Below, piece after piece: positions 6,045 through 62,326 of a stretch of DNA of 62,326 nucleotides. This stretch comes from Pocillopora damicornis (lineage: Eukaryota), in NCBI RefSeq assembly GCF_003704095.1, contig NW_020845316.1:496001-558326 (forward strand), written 5' to 3'. Every line of letters begins with the position of its first letter. The stretch's first letter is position 1. The notes beneath the pieces were generated by a model, which saw nothing but the letters and a program-made list of their open reading frames with translations, did no database searches and was not told where the DNA came from. The translations under genes were made by a program, and so were the position numbers.

Positions 6045-6154
6045 TAGTCTCTTACGCAGTCGTTATTTGGTCACGTCACGCAACACGCTCTCTCTCCAAC
6101 GGGGAATAGAGGGCGTTGTGTGACGAGATCAAACAACGGCTGTGAAGGAGACAA
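6045..6154. mobile_element. ~110-bp non-autonomous TIR element, Academ(H)-like
   Basis: Imperfect inverted ends TAGTCTC...GAGACAA, flanked by near-identical 9-mers CAGTAAGCG (6036-6044) and CAGTAAGCT (6155-6163). TAG..CTA ends with a ~9-bp TSD fit AcademH as I recall it. Confidence 0.55.
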
Positions 6155-6765
6155 CAGTAAGCTTGGCACAAAGCATTTGATTTTTGATTAGAGGTATTTC
6201 GACAATAGAGAAAATAGACCACAAAATACCTGTGTGAGTTCAGATAAATTAGGTTTTTTTTGTCTTTCTCTTAAAGTGACGTAATGCAATAGTTTCGTTC
6301 TCTTGAAAGTTTTGCTCTTTTTCTGTTACAAAAATGAAAACATTAGGTTCACAAAGCGTCCCACCTCGACTTACCCAGCCAAAACATAATTCTTGCATGC
6401 TACGCATGCCCCGTTGTTGTTTTTTTTTTCAATCGTCATTACGTCATCATGGTGAATGCCACAAACCACAAACCGCAAGCTGCCAAACATTACACATCAG
6501 ATTTCACCACAGAACCACTAACTAATAAGCTGTTATTCTCAAATTAGTCGCGCCGCAGGAACGCTCACTAAAAATTAGAAAAATTATCATTGGAAGAGGG
6601 GTATGAACGGGGGATAAGTTCTCTCAGTTGATATTCTGTTAGTAAAAACTATTCCACGATGAGCTCCTCAAGAGATGTAGAAAGATGTTTTCTCTCTGAA
6701 AAGAATCAATAGGGATTTTTGTAGGAATAAATGATCAGTTTAAGTCGTTCAGTCGGACTCCTTAA

Positions 6766-6969: not shown

Positions 6970-7500
6970 TTAAGAAACGGGAAAAATGCAATAAGTAAAT
7001 CTATCGAGACCCATGATTTGGTCAAGGTTACTGTTTTTTCCACTGATTCGTTCAACGGATTTCGCTTGGAGAGAGGGCACGCTCTTAAGTCCCATTCACA
7101 ACAACAACAAAACATGTTCAGTTAAACCAGGTTTAACTGAAAGAAAATCAGCTACAGCAAAAAGAAAAACTAAAGTTTGCAAAGAAGGGTCTGAAAGGGG
7201 TTAACCGACTTACTGAAAAAGGGTTAAATATAACTGACTACCGACACAACGCAAAAAGATTACTGATTAGCGAAAAGTGAATACTGACCGACATCCGATA
7301 TGGTCCGACATTGTCGATATTTGTGATCACAAAGAAGATCACTTTAGCTTAGGAGGTAACTACTTTAAATTGAACATTCAAATAATTATAGAATTTCCTG
7401 TCATCAAACTTCCTTCAAGGCGGGTTCGGAGCGCGGGCTCATTTCCAGAACAACATCCAGTACTAACGAACTCGTATATATAACTTGCATTGTTAATCAT

Positions 7501-7682
7501 NNNNNNNNNNNNNNNNNNNNNNNNNNNNNNNNNNNNNNNNNNNNNNNNNNNNNNNNNNNNNNNNNNNNNNNNNNNNNNNNNNNNNNNNNNNNNNNNNNNN
7601 NNNNNNNNNNNNNNNNNNNNNNNNNNNNNNNNNNNNNNNNNNNNNNNNNNNNNNNNNNNNNNNNNNNNNNNNNNNNNNNNNN
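7501..7682. other. Assembly gap (others at 14034-14125, 53422-53521, 59677-59970, 60095-60195)
   Basis: Runs of N; ORF-track entries crossing them are artefacts. Confidence 1.
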
Positions 7683-9349
7683 AACAGCCTTAGCTTTGGT
7701 CTGAATAAGGTGTTACCCTGAAAGGGAGCCATGTTTCGAAATACGCCTTTAGTAATAAAAACGAGTTCGTTTATTTTTTCTATGTAAAGTAATAAAGGTG
7801 AAAAAGTGAAACTCTTGAGCTGGTTCTTTTCTTCGGCTTTTTTTTCGACGTAGACGGGGGTTATTGCGCGATAACCGTCCGATGATTTTCACCACGTGAC
7901 GTTGCGTAACCATGAGAATCACGGGAAAATCAATGAGTGGGTTATAAAATAACAAAAACTTCACTACTTATATGGGGTAAAGTACATTTAAATATGATCT
8001 GCTGCGCTTATATAACACCACAACTACGTCAATCAAAGGAGTTTAGACCAATTCTACCGACAGAAGTATCACATTCATAATAACTTGCTTTTTGAGAGTG
8101 AATTACCATCCACACTGGAATAATCACAAATTTTGATGCTAAAACTTTGAGCTCTTTGATTTCATCAAAAGTTATTGTATGACATATACTGAACTATTCG
8201 TGATAGATTCAAATATGTACTTATTCCTGGTTACTGAAAAGACGTATAAAATTAACCGCTCGTGGCTAACAACGATCAAAAACATTTTCGTCTTGAGAGA
8301 TCGGTTTTCCCCTCTGTTAACAATTAGTGATTTATAATAGTTATTAACTATCAGGGTGAAGACCTGTGATCGGTGAACAGGTTAGTATTAAAAAGTTACT
8401 GTAACATCTGAATAAACCTGATAAAACATTCCTATTTGTGGCTTGCTCTAACGTTAGCACAAGTCTTAGCCTCATTCCCGAGAAAATAAGTTTGCAAAAA
8501 GGTCCATTTTGAACTGTTGACCTTTTCCTTATAAAGAAGAAGACTGGGGGCACAAAATATATTTCTGGAATTCTGTAACAATTTAGCCGTGCAAACATCA
8601 AATGCTCAAATCTGGTTGTTAATAATAACGCTGCACAACTTTCTTCCCTTCCCTCTCAATTGTGATGCAATTTTTGCCCAAAAAGTCTATGCAAATCACA
8701 ATGCCTTAATGCCTTAATTTCATAAATAGTACGTTTTCCGTTAACGTTGCCCCTTCTTCTTCTTCTTCGGTCCGCTTTCGCCAGACATATATCAGTCGAG
8801 CTCCGTTGGGAACTGGATCGAGTGTGACGTCAAGTGACGTCATTTTTTAGTGACTAGTTTGATCATTCTACAATTTGTGAACCAAGCATAGTTTGTATGT
8901 AGCATGAGATTTTAGTGCTTTTAGAAGTTAGTGTCATTCTACATATAAAGTTAGCATGCTTCAAACAAACAAATAATAGTAATAATAATGATGCTAATGA
9001 AAGTGGTAATAAATATGACAAACATAGTTTCAACGAGAAAAAAACATGATAAATATAACAACAGTTAGTTTTATAAATAATTTTTTTCCGGGTTGTAATG
9101 AGGCTTTCTATATCCTCTATTTAAGTTTAAAAAGTGTTGGGAATCAAGAATACAAGACGTAATACCTTCGAAAGACAGTAATATAATAAGATGTTTGAAA
9201 TATGTGGAGGAGCAAGTCCAGTGAGAGCAGTGAAAGTGATGAGTCAATTTTAAAGAATTAGTGGAAAAATCGAACAAATATATAATTGCCTCAAGGCATA
9301 AGTAAAGCATATCAATTATTCATCTGCCATTTTTAAAAACGAATTAAAA

Positions 9350-52615: not shown

Positions 52616-55600
52616 TTTTATCGAGTGTTTAAACTTAAAGAAAAGCAACATCTTAAGTAAATCGCAAGGAATAAACTCGTAAAATGTTGACTCATGAAAC
52701 TCAGGTTGTTCGTTTCGCTCTCGTTTGATATCACGGAGAAAGTAATCCTAAAATAGAACACGAAAATAAAAAAAATTAAAAAATAGTAATAGCAGTTACA
52801 GTATGGTTCTAACTGTTGTTGTTTTACCTGTGGAAGCATTCTGTTTCGAACGAAGGTTCACATCACTATGTTTGGAACATTGGAAAACGCCGCCATCTTG
52901 AATACAGCATGTGCTCAAGAATCATCACATGGTCGCCAAGCAAGATTGTGACGTTGCGGTCATTTCAGACACGCATTAATACAAACATACTTATTGCTAG
53001 CAACTAAACCTAATCACACGCGAGGATGTGGGGGTTGTCCAAGTGATACCCGCCCCTTGAAAACGAATTCAAATGCCAACTTAAGGTAAGTTCGTTATGA
53101 AAAAAAAATACTTTTTACATATCTGGTTTTTTTTTTTTTATCGTGATAAAATAAACTATTCCTTTTAAACTATAATAATAATAATAATATTATTATAACT
53201 TGCCTAAACGCGAGCAAAACTAAAGAAAACTAATCTGTACGAACTGGTCCACGTGCTAGGTGCGTCGGTTCTCGTGCTCTCAGCAGCGGGGACCTGGTTA
53301 CTTGGGTTAGATGCCGCAAGAGAACATGCAACGCACAACCAATCTATTCTTACTCTGATTATTGCTAAACGGTAGCTGGCTTGGTCGATACCAGTCCCGC
53401 AGATACGATGCTGCCAAAAGCNNNNNNNNNNNNNNNNNNNNNNNNNNNNNNNNNNNNNNNNNNNNNNNNNNNNNNNNNNNNNNNNNNNNNNNNNNNNNNN
53501 NNNNNNNNNNNNNNNNNNNNNGCCACCGTACTGCGGTGCCGTACAGTGGGATCAGACAGCCGAGAAGGATGCTATTTACATCGAAAAAGATCTCTAACGG
53601 GGGCGAATCATTAGTCTTTTGCAATTAAGGGGTTGGGTGGGATATTTTTGGTGAGTGCTAGACTTGGTAACATATAAATATAACGAGCTAAAACACAAAC
53701 CTTTCATTCTGAGAATGACATCACAACTCTGCCTATCTGCCTGCCAACACTAACCGGAAGTAATGTAGCGCTCAGTTCCCAGAATTCCACTGAAACCTAA
53801 GCGTAATCTCGCCCTTATCACAACACTTTTTTAATCAGCTAACTTGGTGTGCTTTCTTCGTGGCATCACGACCTCAAGTTTTATGGCCTCGAACACCGCC
53901 TCAGCGACAGAAATAAGCGAAAGTTCAGGTATTAAGTTCCTTTCAATTTCAGCCTACGTTACAGCATGTGACTAGCTTAGATAATCATTCAGGACCCTGC
54001 TCAGGCCTCTTGAAAACATACTGAGATACTGTTGCATGCAGATGTCTTAATTAGACGAAAATAGCTTATTTCTCTGGATAATTTTTTTTTTATCGTATAC
54101 TACGCTCAAACCATGGTTGAATTACGTTCACAATCACTTAAAATCAATTATTTTCGACCAACTGGTAAATCCAACTGGTAAATCCAACTGGAATCGAACG
54201 GAACGGCGATCGATCGAATCTCGACCATTTCAGTTTTAGTATTCGGTTATAAGAAAGCAAACCTTTTTCAGAGTTAGGTGGTTGATATGATGATGACTTC
54301 CGCGCAGGTGCTTGTTGGAAACACAAGTCAGGTTATCACCGAATGAAGTTCTTTTTAATAGTTCCCTCATTCGCATGACCACACAATACAATCAGTTATA
54401 ACTCTATGGTTTAAACAAATTCGAATATTATGGGGTGTAAGTATGAAATTACGCCGTCTCAGCTGATTTCCACGGTCTTCGAGAACTCGAGAGGTTCGTG
54501 ACAAGTGTGAAATGGCAGGTAAATTGCCTTCTCGCAATTGTACGTAAATGTACATTTGTTGTTACAAATATTTTGAAGATCGATAGAAAGTCTAATGAGT
54601 ATTCCGCTTCTGTGCTCTCGAATACTTTCTGTTACCAACAGATATGTAATTTGATCTCTCAAAATTATTGTCTCCGTATAATATGTGATCAAAGAGTTAA
54701 AACATAAGAGTTAAAAATCTCTTATAGGAACGGGAACGAGAGCCCAGACTGCTACCGTCATTTTGGATTTCCGCCTGGGTAGATTTTGGTCACGTGCTAG
54801 GCAACGTATAGTCGAGAACAAGATATAATTTTATTCCAGCCCGAGCCTGCATAAAAAACTATCATTAATCGGTAATGTGACATTGAGGTGGAATGTCGGG
54901 TAAGATTTCCGTAAGGCCGCATCCTTCATTATGTATAAAGCTATTTAATGAAAGGAAACAATTTTTACCTTCGGGGCTAATGCTATATTTTAGAATAGTT
55001 TGGGGCTATACGGAAATCTTTCCGAATGTCGTGCTGTCTGTTTGTGTCACTCCTCCTGACCTTTAATTTTTAAAAGCATCACGTCACATAGATTTGTCAA
55101 TATCTTTTTACCCGCTAGACCTTAGAGCCTTGCTCGGTAGGTGCTTTTCTGGTGGAAAGCCTGCGATAAAGCTGCCTTTTCCTTTTGCGTCAATGATTTA
55201 AATCAGTTGTTACCTCTCCTAACCAAGTGATATGTGACATATCAGTCATATGATATGTTTGTGTCACTTTTGTAAACTCTAAGTCGGCCTAAACGAAATC
55301 TTTGCATCTGGGTTTCGCTGTTAAGTCGTTTCCTATCGACTGAATTGATTTTATAAAGTGCATAAAACGGAATTCAATATGGAGGCAGGAACTTCCGTAA
55401 GAAGTGATAGGGCATTACGAGATCGGTTCTAGAAGATATGTTGCGTGGATAGTTCCTCTAACACGACATTCCCTTTCTTGGCAAAAATTGCTAGATCTGT
55501 CATGGAGATAATGTTTCGATTCCACAGTTTTATGTTGCATGAAATTCAGCAGGTTCGATTTCGTACAACAAGCTGTGGAAGGAAAATGACCCCTGTATCC

Positions 55601-55776
55601 AATTTCACATCTTCTGTAACTGCGGTATGTAATGAGTGACCTATCGAGAGGCTTGTTGGCGCGTAAAAAGTAGACCGCAAAATTTAAATTCTCCCACAAA
55701 CAAACTGCATTTGCTATTCCGAGTCAAGTGCTTTATGTATAATCAGCATTTAACTCAGTCTTATCTGACGTGACAG

Positions 55777-57383
55777 TTCAAGAGGCACAAGAAAAAGAGA
55801 AAGTCAAGCATTGTTTCGCTGAGCCATGGGAGGACAGTGATGTGATCCTTGTTGTGGAAAATGAGCAGTTTCATGTCCATCGTCTGATATTAAGCATGAG
55901 CTCACCAGTGTTCAAGGCCATGTTCAAATCTCAGTTTAAGGAGGCAGCTGCTGATGAGATTCCGCTACCTGGAAAGAAACCCAATGAGGTGTTGGACTTC
56001 CTGATAAAAATGTATGGACCCCACCACTCCAAAACAGAACTGCAAATCACAAGTAAGGTGCTAACGGACTCTGCTTAGACTTCTTAGGCCCCTGATTCCC
56101 CAAGCAACCTTGCATCTTATAGACCAAGCTTTAATATAACCTCACTTAGACTATTGTAGCACTGGTTGAGGAACCTGTGCGGTAATTTAAAAGACAAGCT
56201 TCAAAAATTGCAGAATAAAGCAGCTCGCGTTATGATGATTCTCAAACTATGACGTTGATGCTGATCAATTGTTAGAAATTTTGGGGTAGAAAAATCTCGA
56301 CCGCCAGCGGACCAAACAAAAAGCCACTATGGCATTAAAATGCCTACATGGGTTAGCTCCGAACTCTTTATCATCGAAATTCCCTGAACGCAATACAATC
56401 TACATCCTGAGAATAATGCTCTAAAGCTGTGACTAAGCAAAGCCAAGGTGTTAGCTTTATCAGTTATTTCTAAATGGTTTGAGAATTTCCAGACGCACTC
56501 AGTCTTTCTCTTACTCTGTGGTCGAATAGCTTGAATTGCATATATTTTACCCATTATTTACTCATCAATCGCCAGTTATTGTGTAGTGTGCAGCTCGTTG
56601 AATGTAACCTCCTGTATAATGCTAGGATAGGTACCTACCGGTATGTAATAACAATTGTTTTCAGTGCGGTTGTGGTCTCTGTTCCGGCAGTTCATAGACA
56701 GTAGTCCACCATACATACCTTTTAATTGAGTGTTATATCTTTAACCATGCTTTTTGATCCTAGTGGAGAATGTGGAACATCTTCTACTCTTAAGTGATGA
56801 GTACCAAGTAACAGAACAGATTTTCAAACCCTGTGTTAAGTTCCTTGATGAGGAGCCAAAAACAAAGGAAAATGTCATGAAGATTCTAGCGCTCGCCGAG
56901 TTGTACAATTTAGAGAAAGTACGCCAAGACTGCGATGATCTGCTTAAGGGTTTGAGCCTCAAAACTCTTTCTGATACCGTTCAGTTTCAAAATATTGACA
57001 AGGATAAACTGCAGTATTTCTTAACGCAAAGAATTGAATTGTTAGAAGGATTACTAAAAGAGGTCTATCCACAATTCATTGGCTTGGCGGAATGTTGTAT
57101 GTGGTTGTGGGATGAAGAAGAAAAAGACATGCCAGATTTGTGCCCCACTCATTATAGTGATGGAAAACCAACTACTGATCTTGTTGATCGTTTCGAGGAA
57201 TGTAATAAATGCCGATTTGTGCTAGACAAAATTGCAAGATATACTGCCCCACAAAGACGGAGGGGCGGGTATTTGGAATTTTCTGGTACTTACGCTACTT
57301 ATTATGCTAGTAGGCATCGCTTTGACAGCAATGTGTCAGGTATTATTAACAAGTTCTCTCAGATAATGACTCAATTAAAATGA
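55777..57383 (+). CDS. BTB/POZ-domain protein, paralogue 2 (exons 55777-56052, 56764-57383; first exon unresolved)
   Basis: Highly similar to paralogue 1 with the same intron position (IT|M ENVE). Candidate upstream donors at 55397 and 55625 could not be joined unambiguously. Confidence 0.85.
56085..56400 (+). mobile_element. CR1/L2-clade LINE ORF2 C-terminal fragment, degraded, in the BTB-2 intron
   Basis: Translates with stops and frameshifts to PHLDYCST..LKDKLQKLQNKAARV..SNYDVDADQLLEILG*KNL..KCLHGLAP, the typical post-RT region of L2/CR1. Confidence 0.8.
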
Positions 57384-58690
57384 AAAATTAAGAAAGTCTT
57401 AAAGTAGTTGTTGAGAATCCCGGCAGAGGCAATGAAAAAATAGAAATATATTGAGCTGAAATAATATCTAATCGGACTTAGCATTTCCACCATACATCAT
57501 TAAGGGTTTTAGTGCATGCTTTCAAATGAACTGAATTTGTCATAGGTCTGTTATAGCTTACGTAGGTCTCATATCTTACATGTCGATTTTTGAAGAAACT
57601 AATGGATCCTAAGAGTTTGAATTTTACATATTTTACACATTATTTACTCATCGAACGCCGATTATCGATAACTGAATAAAAGCGGTTATTGTTAATGTGC
57701 AGCTTCTTGATCCTTGGAGCCTGTATTTTACAAGACTCTCGGCGTGCATTGTTAAAGATCGATCTAATTCTTGAAAGGTCGATTATTTTGTAATCAATAA
57801 AGAGTGGATTTTCTGTTAGATCAGTTTCGAACATTTGTAGTTGTAAAAGGTTAATTTGTAGACTATGAAATGCATGGACTTGTAGGTTAAATCGATTTGA
57901 GATGAATGATTTTGGAAAATAAAATATTTTAGAACATGAATGTATTTCTTGAACCTCATTGCATAAAGTTCTGTAATTTAAAATAGTTTATTAAAATAAA
58001 TTTTCTGAAGAAAGAAAAGGAGTTACAAAGATACAAAAGTACTTTGACGAACCTCATCAACACAAGAAGTTTTCCGAGTGACTTCTGCTTGTCCGTCCTT
58101 ATCCAAAATTTTTAGAATAAGAACGGAGATCTTCAAGAAGTCGGAAGGGACTCGAACCTTTTCAATGTAAATACACACATAGTCCAGTTGAGATTCTCCC
58201 AATAGTTTGCTCTTTTTGCTGATTTTTCGGGTGTTAGTCGTCTTTGAAGAGCCTTACAATGTGAGTCAAGATTTCTGCGATTGTTATCTCTGTTACGATT
58301 CAGGACTTGGCACGATTTTTAAGCTTTTTACCAAAACGTTTGAAATTTCTCGAATCTTTAGGGCCTGCTACTCAGTTCGCTTATTCGCCCATGCGGTGGA
58401 TATACTTTGAACGTTGCCATCCGGCTTGTTGGTCGCTTGCAAGTAACAAGAATAAAGTTGTTGTCATTCTAAGCACTTCGCTGCTCAGTCTCTTGGCGTT
58501 TTCATCTCAGCAAAACCAGCTGGACATAATCTTTCGCTCGGCCGATTCTAAAGTGTTAACAAACCGAGCGAACACTTAGCTATAGATGCCTGGTTTAGGA
58601 CCCGAAACGAGATAATACTGTAACGTAGTCACAAATAGAGACGCCAGTGACTCGAGACACGGAAACTTGAACTTACGTTTAACCTGTCTT

Positions 58691-58753
58691 TATGGGGCGC
58701 CATACTGCATATATATCAAAGGTTTGCAATAATGTCCAGTATGGCGCCCCATA
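58691..58753. mobile_element. 63-bp miniature TIR element, IS3EU-like
   Basis: Perfect 17-bp TIRs TATGGGGCGCCATACTG / CAGTATGGCGCCCCATA; perfect 6-bp TSD TGTCTT at 58685-58690 and 58754-58759. Confidence 0.8.
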
Positions 58754-58928
58754 TGTCTTCCCGTGCATTTAGTTTGACATAGTCAACCGTTTGAACTTTT
58801 TGCTTATCCCCATTGCCGTGACGGAAGCGTTACAAGGTGCTAGTCGATAAGTTCTTGACAGTAGCACGGAAATTAGGTTTTTTGATTGTATAAGACCGTG
58901 GGTTTTTAGTGATTTAAAGAATACACAG

Positions 58929-59280
58929 TGTTACGAGTGTCGATGTAGAGCAGGGTTGTTCCTAGACAAAACTCAGGATCGTCAGTAACAACAACAAACT
59001 GTTTTATTTCCGCGTAGCTGACTTCTTGTTTTTATAGCACTAAACTTCTCTCTGTTCGACGGAACTGTCGCTCTTATATACATAAAGTATAAGGATCTAG
59101 AAACTTCTCTAAAGAACTAAATTTAGTAGATTAACGGGGTTTCTAAATTTGAACAATTACGTAAGAAATAGAACGTTCCAGAATGTTCTTTTTACCAGAA
59201 GGTCACGTCTAGATGACTTCGGGTTCTAGAATGTTCTATTAGAATGTTCTGGGACTTTACTTAGACAATTTTTCGTAACA
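58929..59280 (-). mobile_element. Solo LTR (352 bp), BEL/Pao- or Gypsy-type
   Basis: 8-bp inverted termini TGTTACGA...TCGTAACA; 5-bp flanks CACAG/CATAG; minus-strand TATATAA (59080-59074) followed by AATAAA (59008-59003), i.e. U3-R-U5 order. Confidence 0.8.
59170..59250. promoter_or_regulatory. Heat-shock elements in the LTR U3 region
   Basis: aGAAcgTTCcaGAAtgTTCt (59170-59189, four alternating nGAAn units), gTTCtaGAAtgTTCt (59223-59237), aGAAtgTTCt (59241-59250). Confidence 0.7.
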
Positions 59281-59363
59281 CATAGTGACCATCGAACTGA
59301 CCCGTGTGATTGTTTGTCGCGAGATCATTTACGACACCATACATATGTAAGCTTAGAGAAATT

Positions 59364-59443
59364 CGGTGTCACGGCGGATTTGGACCACCCGGTCCAAATC
59401 CGCTAGCGGATATGGACCCCTCTTCGCAGATTTGGACCCCCCC
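59364..59443. repeat. Transposon-end-like GGATTTGGACC repeats with a perfect 13-bp hairpin
   Basis: GCGGATTTGGACC-accc-GGTCCAAATCCGC at 59374-59403, followed by two more direct units. Confidence 0.7.
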
Positions 59444-60413
59444 CGGCTACCAAACTTTCCTTTTAAGCATCGTTTGTATCATATTCGGTAACTAATTCTA
59501 TTTGCAAGCTTTCTGTCGATGTTTTTTTCAATCACAACACAAAATTCCTCGATAAAGAAATTGAAATTATAACAATAAATCTCTGCTTCTTCTGATGCGA
59601 ATCAACATCGATACGAAACGTCATAACAATAGTGCAGACTATTGCGTCCAGTCACAAAAATAACTCAGTCTGATTTNNNNNNNNNNNNNNNNNNNNNNNN
59701 NNNNNNNNNNNNNNNNNNNNNNNNNNNNNNNNNNNNNNNNNNNNNNNNNNNNNNNNNNNNNNNNNNNNNNNNNNNNNNNNNNNNNNNNNNNNNNNNNNNN
59801 NNNNNNNNNNNNNNNNNNNNNNNNNNNNNNNNNNNNNNNNNNNNNNNNNNNNNNNNNNNNNNNNNNNNNNNNNNNNNNNNNNNNNNNNNNNNNNNNNNNN
59901 NNNNNNNNNNNNNNNNNNNNNNNNNNNNNNNNNNNNNNNNNNNNNNNNNNNNNNNNNNNNNNNNNNNNNNACACTTGGGCATTGAACAATAACAAATTAA
60001 ATTAGTGTCATAAGTTTGTCTCTTACTGAATCTAGCGGTTTTCGACTATCGCGGAAAAGGTTCAAAAACGACCTTTCTCCGAACATTGAACTAANNNNNN
60101 NNNNNNNNNNNNNNNNNNNNNNNNNNNNNNNNNNNNNNNNNNNNNNNNNNNNNNNNNNNNNNNNNNNNNNNNNNNNNNNNNNNNNNNNNNNNNNAAAACA
60201 TTCCGTTTAGAACTAAAATACAATAAGCTTGTGTAGTCGTCACAGTAAGCGGAAGGATTGAAGTCGAGAAACAATGCAGGAAAATTGAAGCTGGAACTTA
60301 TCACAGTTTTTATCACGTTTATTGCATAAAAGCGACGATCGATTTAACATAATATACTTCGGATATCTGAGAGTGCACACACAGTCTGCAGTTCTCCTCA
60401 CATTATTACTCAC

Positions 60414-60668
60414 ATGTAATTTCATCTCTATCTTTCATGTACAATTGCTTCAGGAAGTTCAACGCCTCATCTGCCTTCTTCTCTGGTAATGGGATCTCTT
60501 TGGCTTCTGCTTCCTTAAATTGGGTACTCAACATGGCTTTAAAAACTGGCGAGTGGATGCTCAGTATCTGTCGATGGACGTGGAATCTTTCATTTTCCAC
60601 CACAAGCACCAAATCACTATCCTCCCAAGACTCCGAAAAGGGATTTGTATCCTTTTTGTCATGTAATA
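60414..60668 (-). CDS. BTB/POZ-domain exon, paralogue 3 (partial; other exons not found)
   Basis: PFSESWEDSDLVLVVENERFHVHRQILSIHSPVFKAML..EIPLPEKKADEALNFLKQLY..EIT|gtgagt, with the same phase-1 donor position as paralogues 1 and 2. Acceptor at 60668 or 60680. The C-terminal exon is not visible and may lie in the N-gaps. Confidence 0.8.
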
Positions 60669-62326
60669 CTGAAACAAAACCTGAAATTCAACGATGTAAT
60701 CCATTAACTTCCCTTTTCTTCTATTGATCTTTTACTGAGTTTGGATCTACGGCCATTGAGACCCAGGTAAAATGATGGCCTGCAGTGCATTACGTAGATC
60801 AAACAGTTTCTGACGCAATTTTCCTAAACACCAAATTATAGGTCATGTTTGAGCAGAATACGAGTAACAGTCTCAAGGAGTTACTTTACGAATACAAAAC
60901 AAGCATGAACTTAAAGGAGATCACAAAAAAAATCATTTGTTAAGATGGAAAAGGACAAGAGAGGTAATGACAAGTAAAAAAGGAATAAATGGTTGAAAAT
61001 AGGAACTTTGAAACGGAATGCTTTTACGTCAGTAAATGTGAATTAGCTTCATATCAAGTAAGTATAAGAAAGCGTCTTCATGTTAGCAATAATCAATCAG
61101 AAATGTACGTTCACTAAGATAATATAAACTAAGAGGACTTAACTCCGTGACTCATGATAATTATTTAAAGTCTATTTTAAATTTCGCAACATGCTGGGAA
61201 GTTATTCTTATTTATGCCTCCCATGAAAACGCGGTTAACGATCTCAATATCTTCTGTATTGTCTTATTATTGAAAAAATTATAAACGTTTGCTTCACCAT
61301 TCGAATACTTACCTTTATTGATTTATAGGCACACAGATTAATGAATAAACAAAAAATCGTGCCAAACCGGTAGTTTTGGTTAGCTTAACTTCTGCTATTA
61401 TCTTGATATTTTTTCATTTCTCGCAAACGGCAGGAGGTCATAAAAACAAAGTCATCTACCAATCTCTCCATTATTAATAAAGGTAAAAAGCTCACCGAGT
61501 TTAGCATGAAGCTAGTAAGTGTCACTAAATAAGCAAAAATTTTTTCCGAGTTATCTTCGTCGTGGAGGGTCGTCTTTGTCTATCTTTCTCAAAAAACTCT
61601 AAGAATCCAATTTGAAAGTTTGGGATATCTGCTTCTTAGTTTTGCTCTTTTTACTCGTTTTCGTACCTTTTCTTTTATGTGTTTCAAATTTTTCTTCAAG
61701 AGACATTTTGACAATCAAGACAAACTTTTAAATTTTGAGCAGTGAAATACGGCCCGCAAAATGAACCAATCATAGTGGACGTACTAACTGAGAGATATAA
61801 TAAATATATGTTATTCGCCAACTGGGAGGTCCGTATTGGGAAAACTGTGCCCGGGGTCTTGAGTACCGCCCGAGGCACTAGGCTGGTGAATGACATTTTT
61901 ATTTTTTCCCTTAAACTTAACTAAATTTAGTCTTCCAAAAACTGAACAATTTTTGAGCGAGTGGATGGTAGTTAAAATAGAATTAATGCAAATTAAAGAA
62001 AGTGGCTTCACCGAAACTTTTTCATTTACGTTATGATAAAGGTGATTTAAAAGGCGTTCAAACAAAGTTTGAAACATTTATTTTTACAACTATCTGTCAC
62101 AATCTGACAACTGTCAATTAGAGAGCGCGTAAGAAAAAAAAAGCGCATGTACCCTTTTGAAAAAAGAACGGAACTAGTTTAGCAAGGACTGTCACGACAA
62201 TGTTTTCTTCAAAAATAGTCAATGACGTTACGGAAAGTATTATTCGTCCTTATCGACAATTAATAAATGTACGAAGATTTACCCTTGTTCAGTTAGTAAA
62301 TGGCAAGGAAAGTAATTGTAAGTTAA

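What the first reader, a model, noticed from the sequence alone, without database searches (positions are those of the whole stretch)
58929..59280. Solo LTR built like a heat-shock promoter
Seen: one perfect 4-unit HSE, one 3-unit HSE and two 2-unit sites (59241-59250, 59099-59108), all about 20-170 bp upstream of the LTR TATA box on the minus strand. Established: HSF trimers bind three or more alternating nGAAn units, and the plant retrotransposon ONSEN is heat-activated through LTR HSEs. Inference: a heat-inducible retroelement family in a probable coral; this copy could act as a heat-responsive enhancer or promoter between BTB-2 and BTB-3, firing antisense toward BTB-2.
Basis: partly seen in the sequence, partly recalled or inferred. 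Interest (0 to 1): 0.7.

Follow-up and report, generated by a model that had tools for sequence, protein, structure and literature searches.

The report
Coral retrotransposon with heat-shock promoter
This is the leftover end-piece (solo LTR) of a coral jumping-gene family whose promoter carries textbook heat-shock-factor sites, kept at the same places in distant relatives, so heat likely switches the family on; this single copy probably does little to its neighbouring genes.

Summary
Observation confirmed. 58929-59280 is a 352-bp solo LTR (TG..CA, 5-bp target duplication with one mismatch), read on the minus strand, from a Ty3/Gypsy family with Gmr1-type order (integrase before RT), a tRNA-Pro primer site and 35 matches in the genome. 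All four heat-shock-element (HSE) sites are where stated; 0 of 20,000 shuffles give a 4-unit plus a 3-unit array. 19 of 21 full copies keep an array of 3 or more units; 18 of the genome's 121 perfect GAA-first 4-unit HSEs lie in this family. Relatives from metagenome contigs keep the 4-unit and TATA-proximal sites; against the most distant HSE-bearing LTR only the terminus, the distal HSE and the proximal HSE-TATA block still align. A second Gmr1-type family in the genome also carries a 3-unit HSE. Some relatives carry none. Heat induction and HSF binding were not testable. A role of this copy for the BTB genes is unsupported: it lies behind both 3' ends, 5 kb from the BTB-2 start. The kind is known (ONSEN; Macrostomum LTRs); nine searches found no coral case, and it offers a candidate cis-element for reported heat induction of coral LTR elements.

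The parts
58929..59280 (-). Solo LTR, 352 bp, of a Gmr1-type Ty3/Gypsy retrotransposon family
   Evidence: TG..CA with 8-bp terminal inverted repeats; 35 matches in own genome; linked to PBS+gag and to PR-IN-RT-RH-PPT in other copies
58924..58928 (.). Target-site duplication, left copy (CACAG)
59281..59285 (.). Target-site duplication, right copy (CATAG, one mismatch)
59241..59250 (-). 2-unit HSE-type site, inside a 13-bp duplication found in this genome's copies but not in the 7 metagenome LTRs aligned
59223..59237 (-). 3-unit HSE; perfect only in the younger subfamily
59170..59189 (-). 4-unit HSE (distal site); perfect in 13 of 21 full copies and in 7 of 7 aligned metagenome LTRs
59099..59108 (-). 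TATA-proximal HSE site: 2 perfect units here, 3 in several relatives; first GAA 26-28 bases before the TATA box in five LTRs compared
59073..59080 (-). TATA box (TATATAAG)
   Evidence: conserved in L110 and L147
59046..59055 (-). Predicted transcription start region (inferred from TATA distance); this copy lacks about 14 bp here that its closest relatives have
   Evidence: alignment; insertion row; start not mapped
59003..59008 (-). Poly(A) signal AATAAA of the LTR
53874..57953 (+). Neighbour BTB-2: first exon about 53874-53928, BTB exon 55777-56052, last exon 56764 to about 57950; its 3' end faces the LTR
   Evidence: spliced RNA contigs in 4 of 4 runs; first exon located; Pfam BTB
60412..60680 (-). 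Neighbour BTB-3: BTB-coding exon; its second coding exon was not found in the window (two N gaps lie between it and the LTR)

Best explanation
This is a solo LTR of a Gmr1-type Ty3/Gypsy retrotransposon family of a coral, and the HSE arrays in front of its TATA box are likely the element's own heat-shock-factor-driven promoter, kept by selection on the replicating element, while this copy is probably a passive remnant. Shown: the LTR anatomy, family, orientation, domain order, HSE arrays and their conservation. Inferred: activated HSF1 trimers would bind the distal 4-unit site and the TATA-proximal site and start transcription near 59050, so that full elements would be transcribed during heat or other proteotoxic stress; recombination between the two LTRs of an inserted element left this copy. 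Inferred: this copy may still bind HSF1 and start a short RNA, but is unlikely to regulate BTB-2 or BTB-3 to any important degree.
For: LTR identity: (18 of 21 full copies have a 5-bp duplication with at most 1 mismatch). PBS matches the genome's own tRNA-Pro 3' end, 17 of 18 bases in L007. PR-IN-RT-RH order with Gypsy-type Pfam domains. HSEs beyond chance. 13 of 21 full copies keep the 4-unit array, 19 of 21 an array of 3 or more. Metagenome relatives at about 72% LTR identity keep all 18 core bases of the distal and proximal sites against 115-127 of 167 other U3 bases (p 0.002 and 0.01, sites chosen after seeing the alignment) and have a third unit at the proximal site. Against L147 (integrase 59%), the only segments aligning at E<0.01 are the terminus, the distal HSE and the proximal HSE-TATA block. 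Proximal GAA-to-TATA distance is 27, 27, 28, 28, 26 in five LTRs. HSE score is at least that of a host intronless hsp70 promoter (12 vs 12); the genome encodes HSF DNA-binding domains. Three RT-before-IN Gypsy LTRs of the same genome have no array. Precedent: in Macrostomum 6 of 137 LTR families have canonical HSEs, the 4 Ty3/Gypsy ones are strongly heat-induced, and HSE mutation abolishes induction (PMC12801592, passages).
Against: No heat-stress expression, start-site or binding data could be obtained. Much of the spacer variation is CpG-type decay, so it is weak evidence of relaxed spacers. Four Gmr1-type relatives show no array (L121, L134, L142, L148; LTR bounds uncertain or partial for some), L113 and L120 only imperfect ones. 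In Macrostomum 2 of 6 HSE-bearing families were not induced. No intact internal region of the family was found: one integrase match, broken.
Confidence: 0.7

Rival explanations
1. This copy has been co-opted, or acts by accident, as a heat-responsive promoter or enhancer for the BTB cluster, firing antisense RNA into the BTB-2 3' end or boosting BTB-2/BTB-3 under heat.
For: All four sites and the TATA box are intact in this copy; it points at the BTB-2 3' end 1 kb away; flank contigs run 28 bases into the LTR in 2 of 2 other DNA runs and no empty site was listed (28 is short of the tool's 31-base bar). Helitron-borne HSEs up-regulate nearby genes in C. elegans (PMC6927752, abstract).
Against: Intact HSEs are the family norm, so their presence here needs no host selection. 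It lies behind the 3' ends of both neighbours, 5.3 kb from the BTB-2 first exon. The LTR's AATAAA lies about 45 bases after the predicted start, and this copy has a private 14-bp loss at the start region. In Macrostomum only two solo LTRs of induced families lay within 2 kb of mildly induced genes (PMC12801592, passage).
Confidence: 0.15
2. The arrays are a by-product of short duplications of an AGAAC(A/G)TTCT near-palindrome in U3, or are read by another factor; they do not make the element heat-responsive.
For: One site is part of a 13-bp duplication and one became perfect by a single substitution; the a-priori core test is not significant; some relatives lack arrays; the genome has 78 control matches against 121 real 4-unit matches, so many perfect arrays arise by chance.
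Against: Two sites survive at fixed positions where the rest of U3 no longer aligns; the 2-base spacing fits HSF and not STAT (TTC-N3-GAA) or steroid-receptor (3-base spacer) sites (established knowledge, recalled); a second, unrelated-looking LTR family also has a 3-unit array in 10 of 13 copies that cover the site.
Confidence: 0.12
3. The sites are true HSF1 sites, but the element uses them chiefly for non-thermal HSF1 activity (germ line, early embryo, oxidative or proteotoxic stress), with heat induction as a side effect.
For: Selection on a retrotransposon acts through heritable insertions; HSF1 has non-heat roles in animal gametes and embryos (established knowledge, recalled). Family sequence is present in 5 of 5 RNA libraries of unknown treatment.
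Against: No stage-resolved data here; Macrostomum LTRs of the same layout respond to heat within 5-15 min (PMC12801592, passage). Contigs in RNA libraries may be read-through from host genes or DNA.
Confidence: 0.1

Closest known systems
Macrostomum lignano HSE-bearing Ty3/Gypsy LTR families, in particular Mlig-id38 (Gmr1/Osvaldo) and Mlig-id115 (Mag) (PMC12801592; read: abstract, part 1 of 6 of the text, passages; supplements not opened)
   Same: Animal Ty3/Gypsy LTR with canonical HSEs upstream of the TATA box; same broad clade type as Mlig-id38; similar copy number (about 20-35).
   Different: Cnidarian host; heat induction not tested here; Mlig-id38 has one HSE, this LTR a 4-unit plus a 3-unit array; the paper infers independent gains per family, whereas here the two-site layout is shared by LTRs that no longer align elsewhere. 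Relationship to Mlig-id38 not tested.
ONSEN (Ty1/Copia, Brassicaceae) (as described in PMC12801592 passages; primary papers not read)
   Same: HSEs in the LTR that would let the host heat-shock factor drive the element.
   Different: Plant Copia element with proven HSF binding and transposition; this is an animal Gypsy element and no intact copy was found in the assembly.
Caenorhabditis Helitron-borne HSEs (PMC6927752; abstract and section list seen)
   Same: A transposon family scatters HSEs over the genome (here 18 of 121 perfect GAA-first 4-unit sites).
   Different: Helitrons hold the majority of C. elegans HSEs and are shown to up-regulate neighbours; here a minority share and no shown effect on genes.
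Heat-induced LTR elements of Acropora hyacinthus (Traylor-Knowles et al. 2017; not read, known only as cited in PMC12801592)
   Same: Coral LTR elements; reported up to 250-fold induction after 4 h of heat.
   Different: No cis-element was shown there; whether those elements belong to this lineage is untested.

Membership tests
Solo LTR of an LTR retrotransposon | TG...CA termini and a 4-6 bp target-site duplication around a single LTR | tested here: met
   (one mismatch in this copy's duplication)
Solo LTR of an LTR retrotransposon | Same sequence flanks a PBS, gag/pol and PPT elsewhere | tested here: met
   PBS+gag in L031 and L035, PPT in L036, tRNA-Pro match
Gmr1-type Ty3/Gypsy | Integrase upstream of RT (PMC8220671, passage) | tested here: met
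   L036 order PR-IN-RT-RH; same in L110, L113, L120, L121, L128, L130, L131, L142
Gmr1-type Ty3/Gypsy | Gypsy-type domains rather than Copia-type | tested here: met
   Integrase_H2C2, rve, RVT_1, RT_RNaseH_2 over cut-off; SH3_Tf2-1 below cut-off
Gmr1-type Ty3/Gypsy | Groups with named Gmr1 references in an RT tree | not tested
HSF-activated LTR retrotransposons (ONSEN, Macrostomum type) | Canonical HSE of 3 or more units in U3 upstream of the TATA box, shared by the family | tested here: met
HSF-activated LTR retrotransposons (ONSEN, Macrostomum type) | Host encodes HSF and uses the same HSE in hsp70 promoters | tested here: met
   HSF_DNA-bind matches; 3-unit arrays before the TATA box in 2 of 7 hsp70-family loci scanned
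HSF-activated LTR retrotransposons (ONSEN, Macrostomum type) | Strong transcriptional induction by heat | not testable with these tools
   All runs offered were contigs without treatment, level or strand
HSF-activated LTR retrotransposons (ONSEN, Macrostomum type) | Induction needs the HSEs / HSF binds them | not testable with these tools
   Needs reporter, ChIP or EMSA
Transposon-donated HSE regulating a host gene (Helitron type) | Neighbouring gene is heat-induced through the inserted HSE | tested here: inconclusive
   Position is downstream of both genes; RNA contigs cannot show level or treatment

The most novel reading that the evidence does not exclude
A two-site heat-shock promoter (distal 4-unit HSE plus an HSE fixed 26-28 bases before the TATA box) is an old, inherited trait of a Gmr1-type lineage rather than a recent one-off gain; HSF1 drives these elements during marine heat waves, which would explain the heat induction of coral LTR elements, and their solo LTRs, which hold about 15% of the genome's perfect GAA-first 4-unit HSEs, wire some coral genes into the heat-shock response in ways that differ between colonies or species.
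Probability: 0.22. Interest if true: 0.75.

Novelty: new member of a known kind. Interest (0 to 1): 0.48.

Why it matters
Coral LTR elements are reported to be strongly induced by heat with no known cis-element (as cited in PMC12801592). This family gives a precise, testable candidate: named HSF1 sites at fixed positions, in a host where HSF1 knock-out is feasible (title only, in the reference list seen). If confirmed it would be a further animal case of a retrotransposon using the heat-shock factor and, by these searches, the first in cnidarians, and it would link bleaching-level heat to transposon transcription. The single insertion beside the BTB genes matters much less than the family.

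Tried and rejected
RNA evidence for firing from this copy: 3 of 4 runs (X1, X5, X9) have no cover at 58074-58803, and 2 of 2 RNA runs (X1, X12) none at 58450-58914; X11 (random-primed, also covers the BTB-2 intron) has low-depth pieces there. These are contigs of unknown treatment, so absence shows nothing. LTR-matching RNA contigs carry flanks of other copies (L005 in X1, L009 in X5; 4 of 6 loose ends tested matched no fetched locus). Contig ends near 59048 were rejected as a start-site signal: they coincide with the indel that separates this copy from its relatives. Search for an intact full element: C2536's two LTRs are separate insertions (the second has its own duplication, and the coding sequence between is Bel/Pao-like); C793's two are a local duplication with shared flanks. 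Base rate of HSEs among the genome's LTR families: of 20 integrase regions fetched only 5 gave usable LTR pairs, too few for a rate. The integrase tree leaves 10 of 15 inner branches open, so single origin versus repeated gain of HSEs is unresolved. C1801's 4-unit site is not a family member. Hosts of the metagenome contigs were not determined. Literature: nine searches listed no paper on HSEs in coral or cnidarian LTRs; subscription journals and bioRxiv supplements are not covered, and the coral HSF1 knock-out paper was not held. The scan's own notes had nothing on this sequence.

Full report
Observation. The stretch 58929-59280 is 352 bp, begins and ends with an 8-bp inverted repeat (TGTTACGA...TCGTAACA) and is flanked by CACAG and CATAG, a 5-bp target duplication with one mismatch. 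Strict alternating GAA/TTC arrays lie at 59170-59189 (4 units), 59223-59237 (3 units), 59241-59250 and 59099-59108 (2 units each). On the minus strand TATATAAG is at 59080-59073 and AATAAA at 59008-59003. Of 20,000 dinucleotide shuffles 7 give a 4-unit array and none gives a 4-unit plus a 3-unit array.

What the element is. The own genome gives 35 matches at 68-100% identity (a lower bound). Of 21 full-length copies, 12 have a perfect 5-bp duplication, 6 have one mismatch and 3 have none: mostly solo LTRs. Two copies are followed by a primer-binding site and a gag start (L031, L035) and one follows a polypurine tract (L036), which fixes the window's minus strand as sense. The primer site matches the 3' end of the genome's tRNA-Pro genes, 17 of 18 bases in L007. 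The one internal region found has protease, integrase, RT and RNase H in that order, with Gypsy-type Pfam domains; integrase before RT marks the Gmr1 group (PMC8220671, passage). Its frames are broken, and no second close integrase was found; the assembly is fragmented, so intact copies are not excluded. The host is a coral: spliced BTB-2 RNA is held by runs labelled coral metagenome.

HSEs within the family. 13 of 21 full copies have the perfect 4-unit array and 19 of 21 an array of at least 3 units. The window copy belongs to a younger group of 7 (mean pairwise difference 5.0%, against 12.1% among the other 14; it differs from its closest relatives by 3.7-5.4%). The 3-unit array is perfect only in that group (middle unit 7 of 7 against 1 of 14). 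Core columns vary only slightly less than other U3 columns (33 of 692 against 224 of 3121 minor bases), as expected for copies that decay neutrally after insertion. Genome-wide there are 121 perfect GAA-first 4-unit sites against 78 for the reversed control; 18 of them lie in the 30 family loci fetched.

HSEs in relatives. A scan of metagenome contigs with the integrase gave 41 loci; hosts were not determined. Seven loci with the left part of a related LTR (about 72-75% identical; L115/L116 and L128/L130/L131 are near-identical groups, so about three or four independent sequences) all keep a perfect 4-unit array, and those that reach the TATA-proximal site (L110, L115, L116, L129, L146) have three perfect units there. 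They lack the 13-bp duplication that holds the 59241-59250 site and have ATC in the middle of the 3-unit site, so the test on all 33 core bases is not significant (p 0.07-0.6). For the distal and proximal sites alone, chosen after seeing the alignment, 18 of 18 core bases are kept against 115 and 127 of 167 other U3 bases (p 0.002, 0.01). The strongest footprint is L147 (integrase 59% identical, tRNA-Pro-like primer site): the only segments aligning to the window LTR at E<0.01 are the terminus, the distal HSE (one mismatch) and the block from the proximal HSE (3 units) to the TATA box. The first GAA of the proximal site lies 27, 27, 28, 28 and 26 bases before the TATA box in the window, L115, L110, L147 and L120. 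L113 and L120 have imperfect arrays that still beat 998 and 1000 of 1000 shuffles; L121, L134, L142 and L148 have none (LTR bounds uncertain or partial for some). A second Gmr1-type family in the own genome (integrase 41-45% identical, different LTR) has a 3-unit array in 10 of 13 distinct copies that cover the site (two duplicate rows dropped). Three LTRs of RT-before-IN Gypsy elements have none. The integrase tree cannot order gains and losses.

Host controls. The genome has four HSF DNA-binding-domain matches. Two of seven hsp70-family loci scanned have 3-unit arrays before a TATA box; on the same score the LTR equals the intronless hsp70 promoter (12 and 12) and is below the other (17).

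This copy and the BTB genes. BTB-2 is transcribed on the plus strand from a first exon near 53874-53928 to about 57950; BTB-3 has a BTB exon at 60680-60412 on the minus strand and no second coding exon was found, with two N gaps in between. The LTR therefore lies behind the 3' ends of a convergent pair, 1 kb from the BTB-2 end and 5.3 kb from its start. Its predicted start is followed within about 45 bases by its own AATAAA, and this copy lacks about 14 bp that relatives have at that place. Flank contigs run 28 bases into the LTR in both other DNA runs laid, with no empty-site joint listed (below the tool's 31-base bar), so the insertion is probably shared among individuals. Family sequence is present in all five RNA libraries laid, with flanks of other copies where these could be traced; the contigs give no strand, level, start or treatment. 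Nothing here supports a role for this copy; nothing excludes it.

Mechanism. Shown: anatomy, family, orientation and conservation. Inferred from established HSF biology and from precedent: HSF1 trimers would bind the distal and proximal arrays under heat and start transcription near 59050; in a full element this is the genomic RNA. Conservation across long-diverged LTRs points to selection on the replicating element. Confidence in the whole reading 0.7.

Comparison and novelty. In Macrostomum lignano 6 of 137 LTR families carry canonical HSEs; the four Ty3/Gypsy families, one of them Gmr1/Osvaldo, are induced about 250-fold, two Copia families are not, and mutating the HSEs abolishes induction; the authors call it the second validated case after ONSEN and note that heat-induced LTR elements of Acropora hyacinthus have no known cis-element (PMC12801592; abstract, part 1 of 6 and passages read; supplements not opened). 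Helitrons supply HSEs to host genes in Caenorhabditis (PMC6927752, abstract). In Nematostella, promoters with three or more HSEs are more strongly heat-induced in two of three populations (PMC13104882, passages). One Acropora study found a transposon module that varied among samples but little between treatments (PMC4758253, passages), a caution against assuming heat control of coral elements in general. Nine searches listed no report of HSEs in coral or cnidarian LTRs. Verdict: a new member of a known kind, real and well supported at sequence level, untested in function; the family is of more interest than this insertion. Interest 0.48.

Noticed in passing
L151:2860-3147 and 6115-6403; L154:2602-2880 and 7395-7683 (G000 C1904, C1108); 17 matches: A second Gmr1-type family with about 285-bp LTRs, another primer site and its own 3-unit HSE about 100 bp before the TATA box; one copy (C883) has a perfect 4-unit site. 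L154 has both LTRs and IN-RT-RH.
   Followed up: partly
window 60412-60680 and gaps 59677-59970, 60095-60194: BTB-3 has no second coding exon in the window; it may lie in an assembly gap or the gene may be truncated.
   Followed up: partly
window 59300-59670: Another repeat adjoins the LTR: a 37-bp block (59300-59336) shared by many DNA and RNA contigs with different flanks, then palindromic GGATTTGGACC-type units. The LTR probably inserted at the edge of an older repeat.
   Followed up: no
L048 (G000 C231:34080-34275) and L054 (G000 C526:4545-4735): Dense HSE clusters (5+3 units with a TATA-like box; 3+4+4 units) whose genes or elements were not identified; candidates for strong HSF1 targets.
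   Followed up: no
L134:4879-5486, L135:169-339: A related LTR with the TATA and R-U5 part kept but the U3 HSEs lost, inverted against the integrase and interrupted by a LINE-like piece.
   Followed up: partly
L031:2957-4824: Bel/Pao-like coding remains (Peptidase_A17) between two unrelated insertions of this LTR family.
   Followed up: partly
L024 (G000 C4113:53221-53659): A copy with an internal U3 duplication of about 57 bp that repeats part of the distal HSE region.
   Followed up: no
window 59010-59069 in run X23; L031:545-791: Family variants that lack the start-site region or the TATA region altogether.
   Followed up: no
L005 (C3193:30130-30494) and L009 (C266:286891-287257): These two copies appear with their flanks in RNA-library contigs (X1, X5); whether by read-through or LTR-driven transcription is unknown.
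   Followed up: partly
G000 C1082, C3871, C3188, C1056: Four HSF DNA-binding-domain matches, three in apparently uninterrupted frames; more HSF-like genes than the single HSF1 usually discussed for corals (recalled).
   Followed up: no
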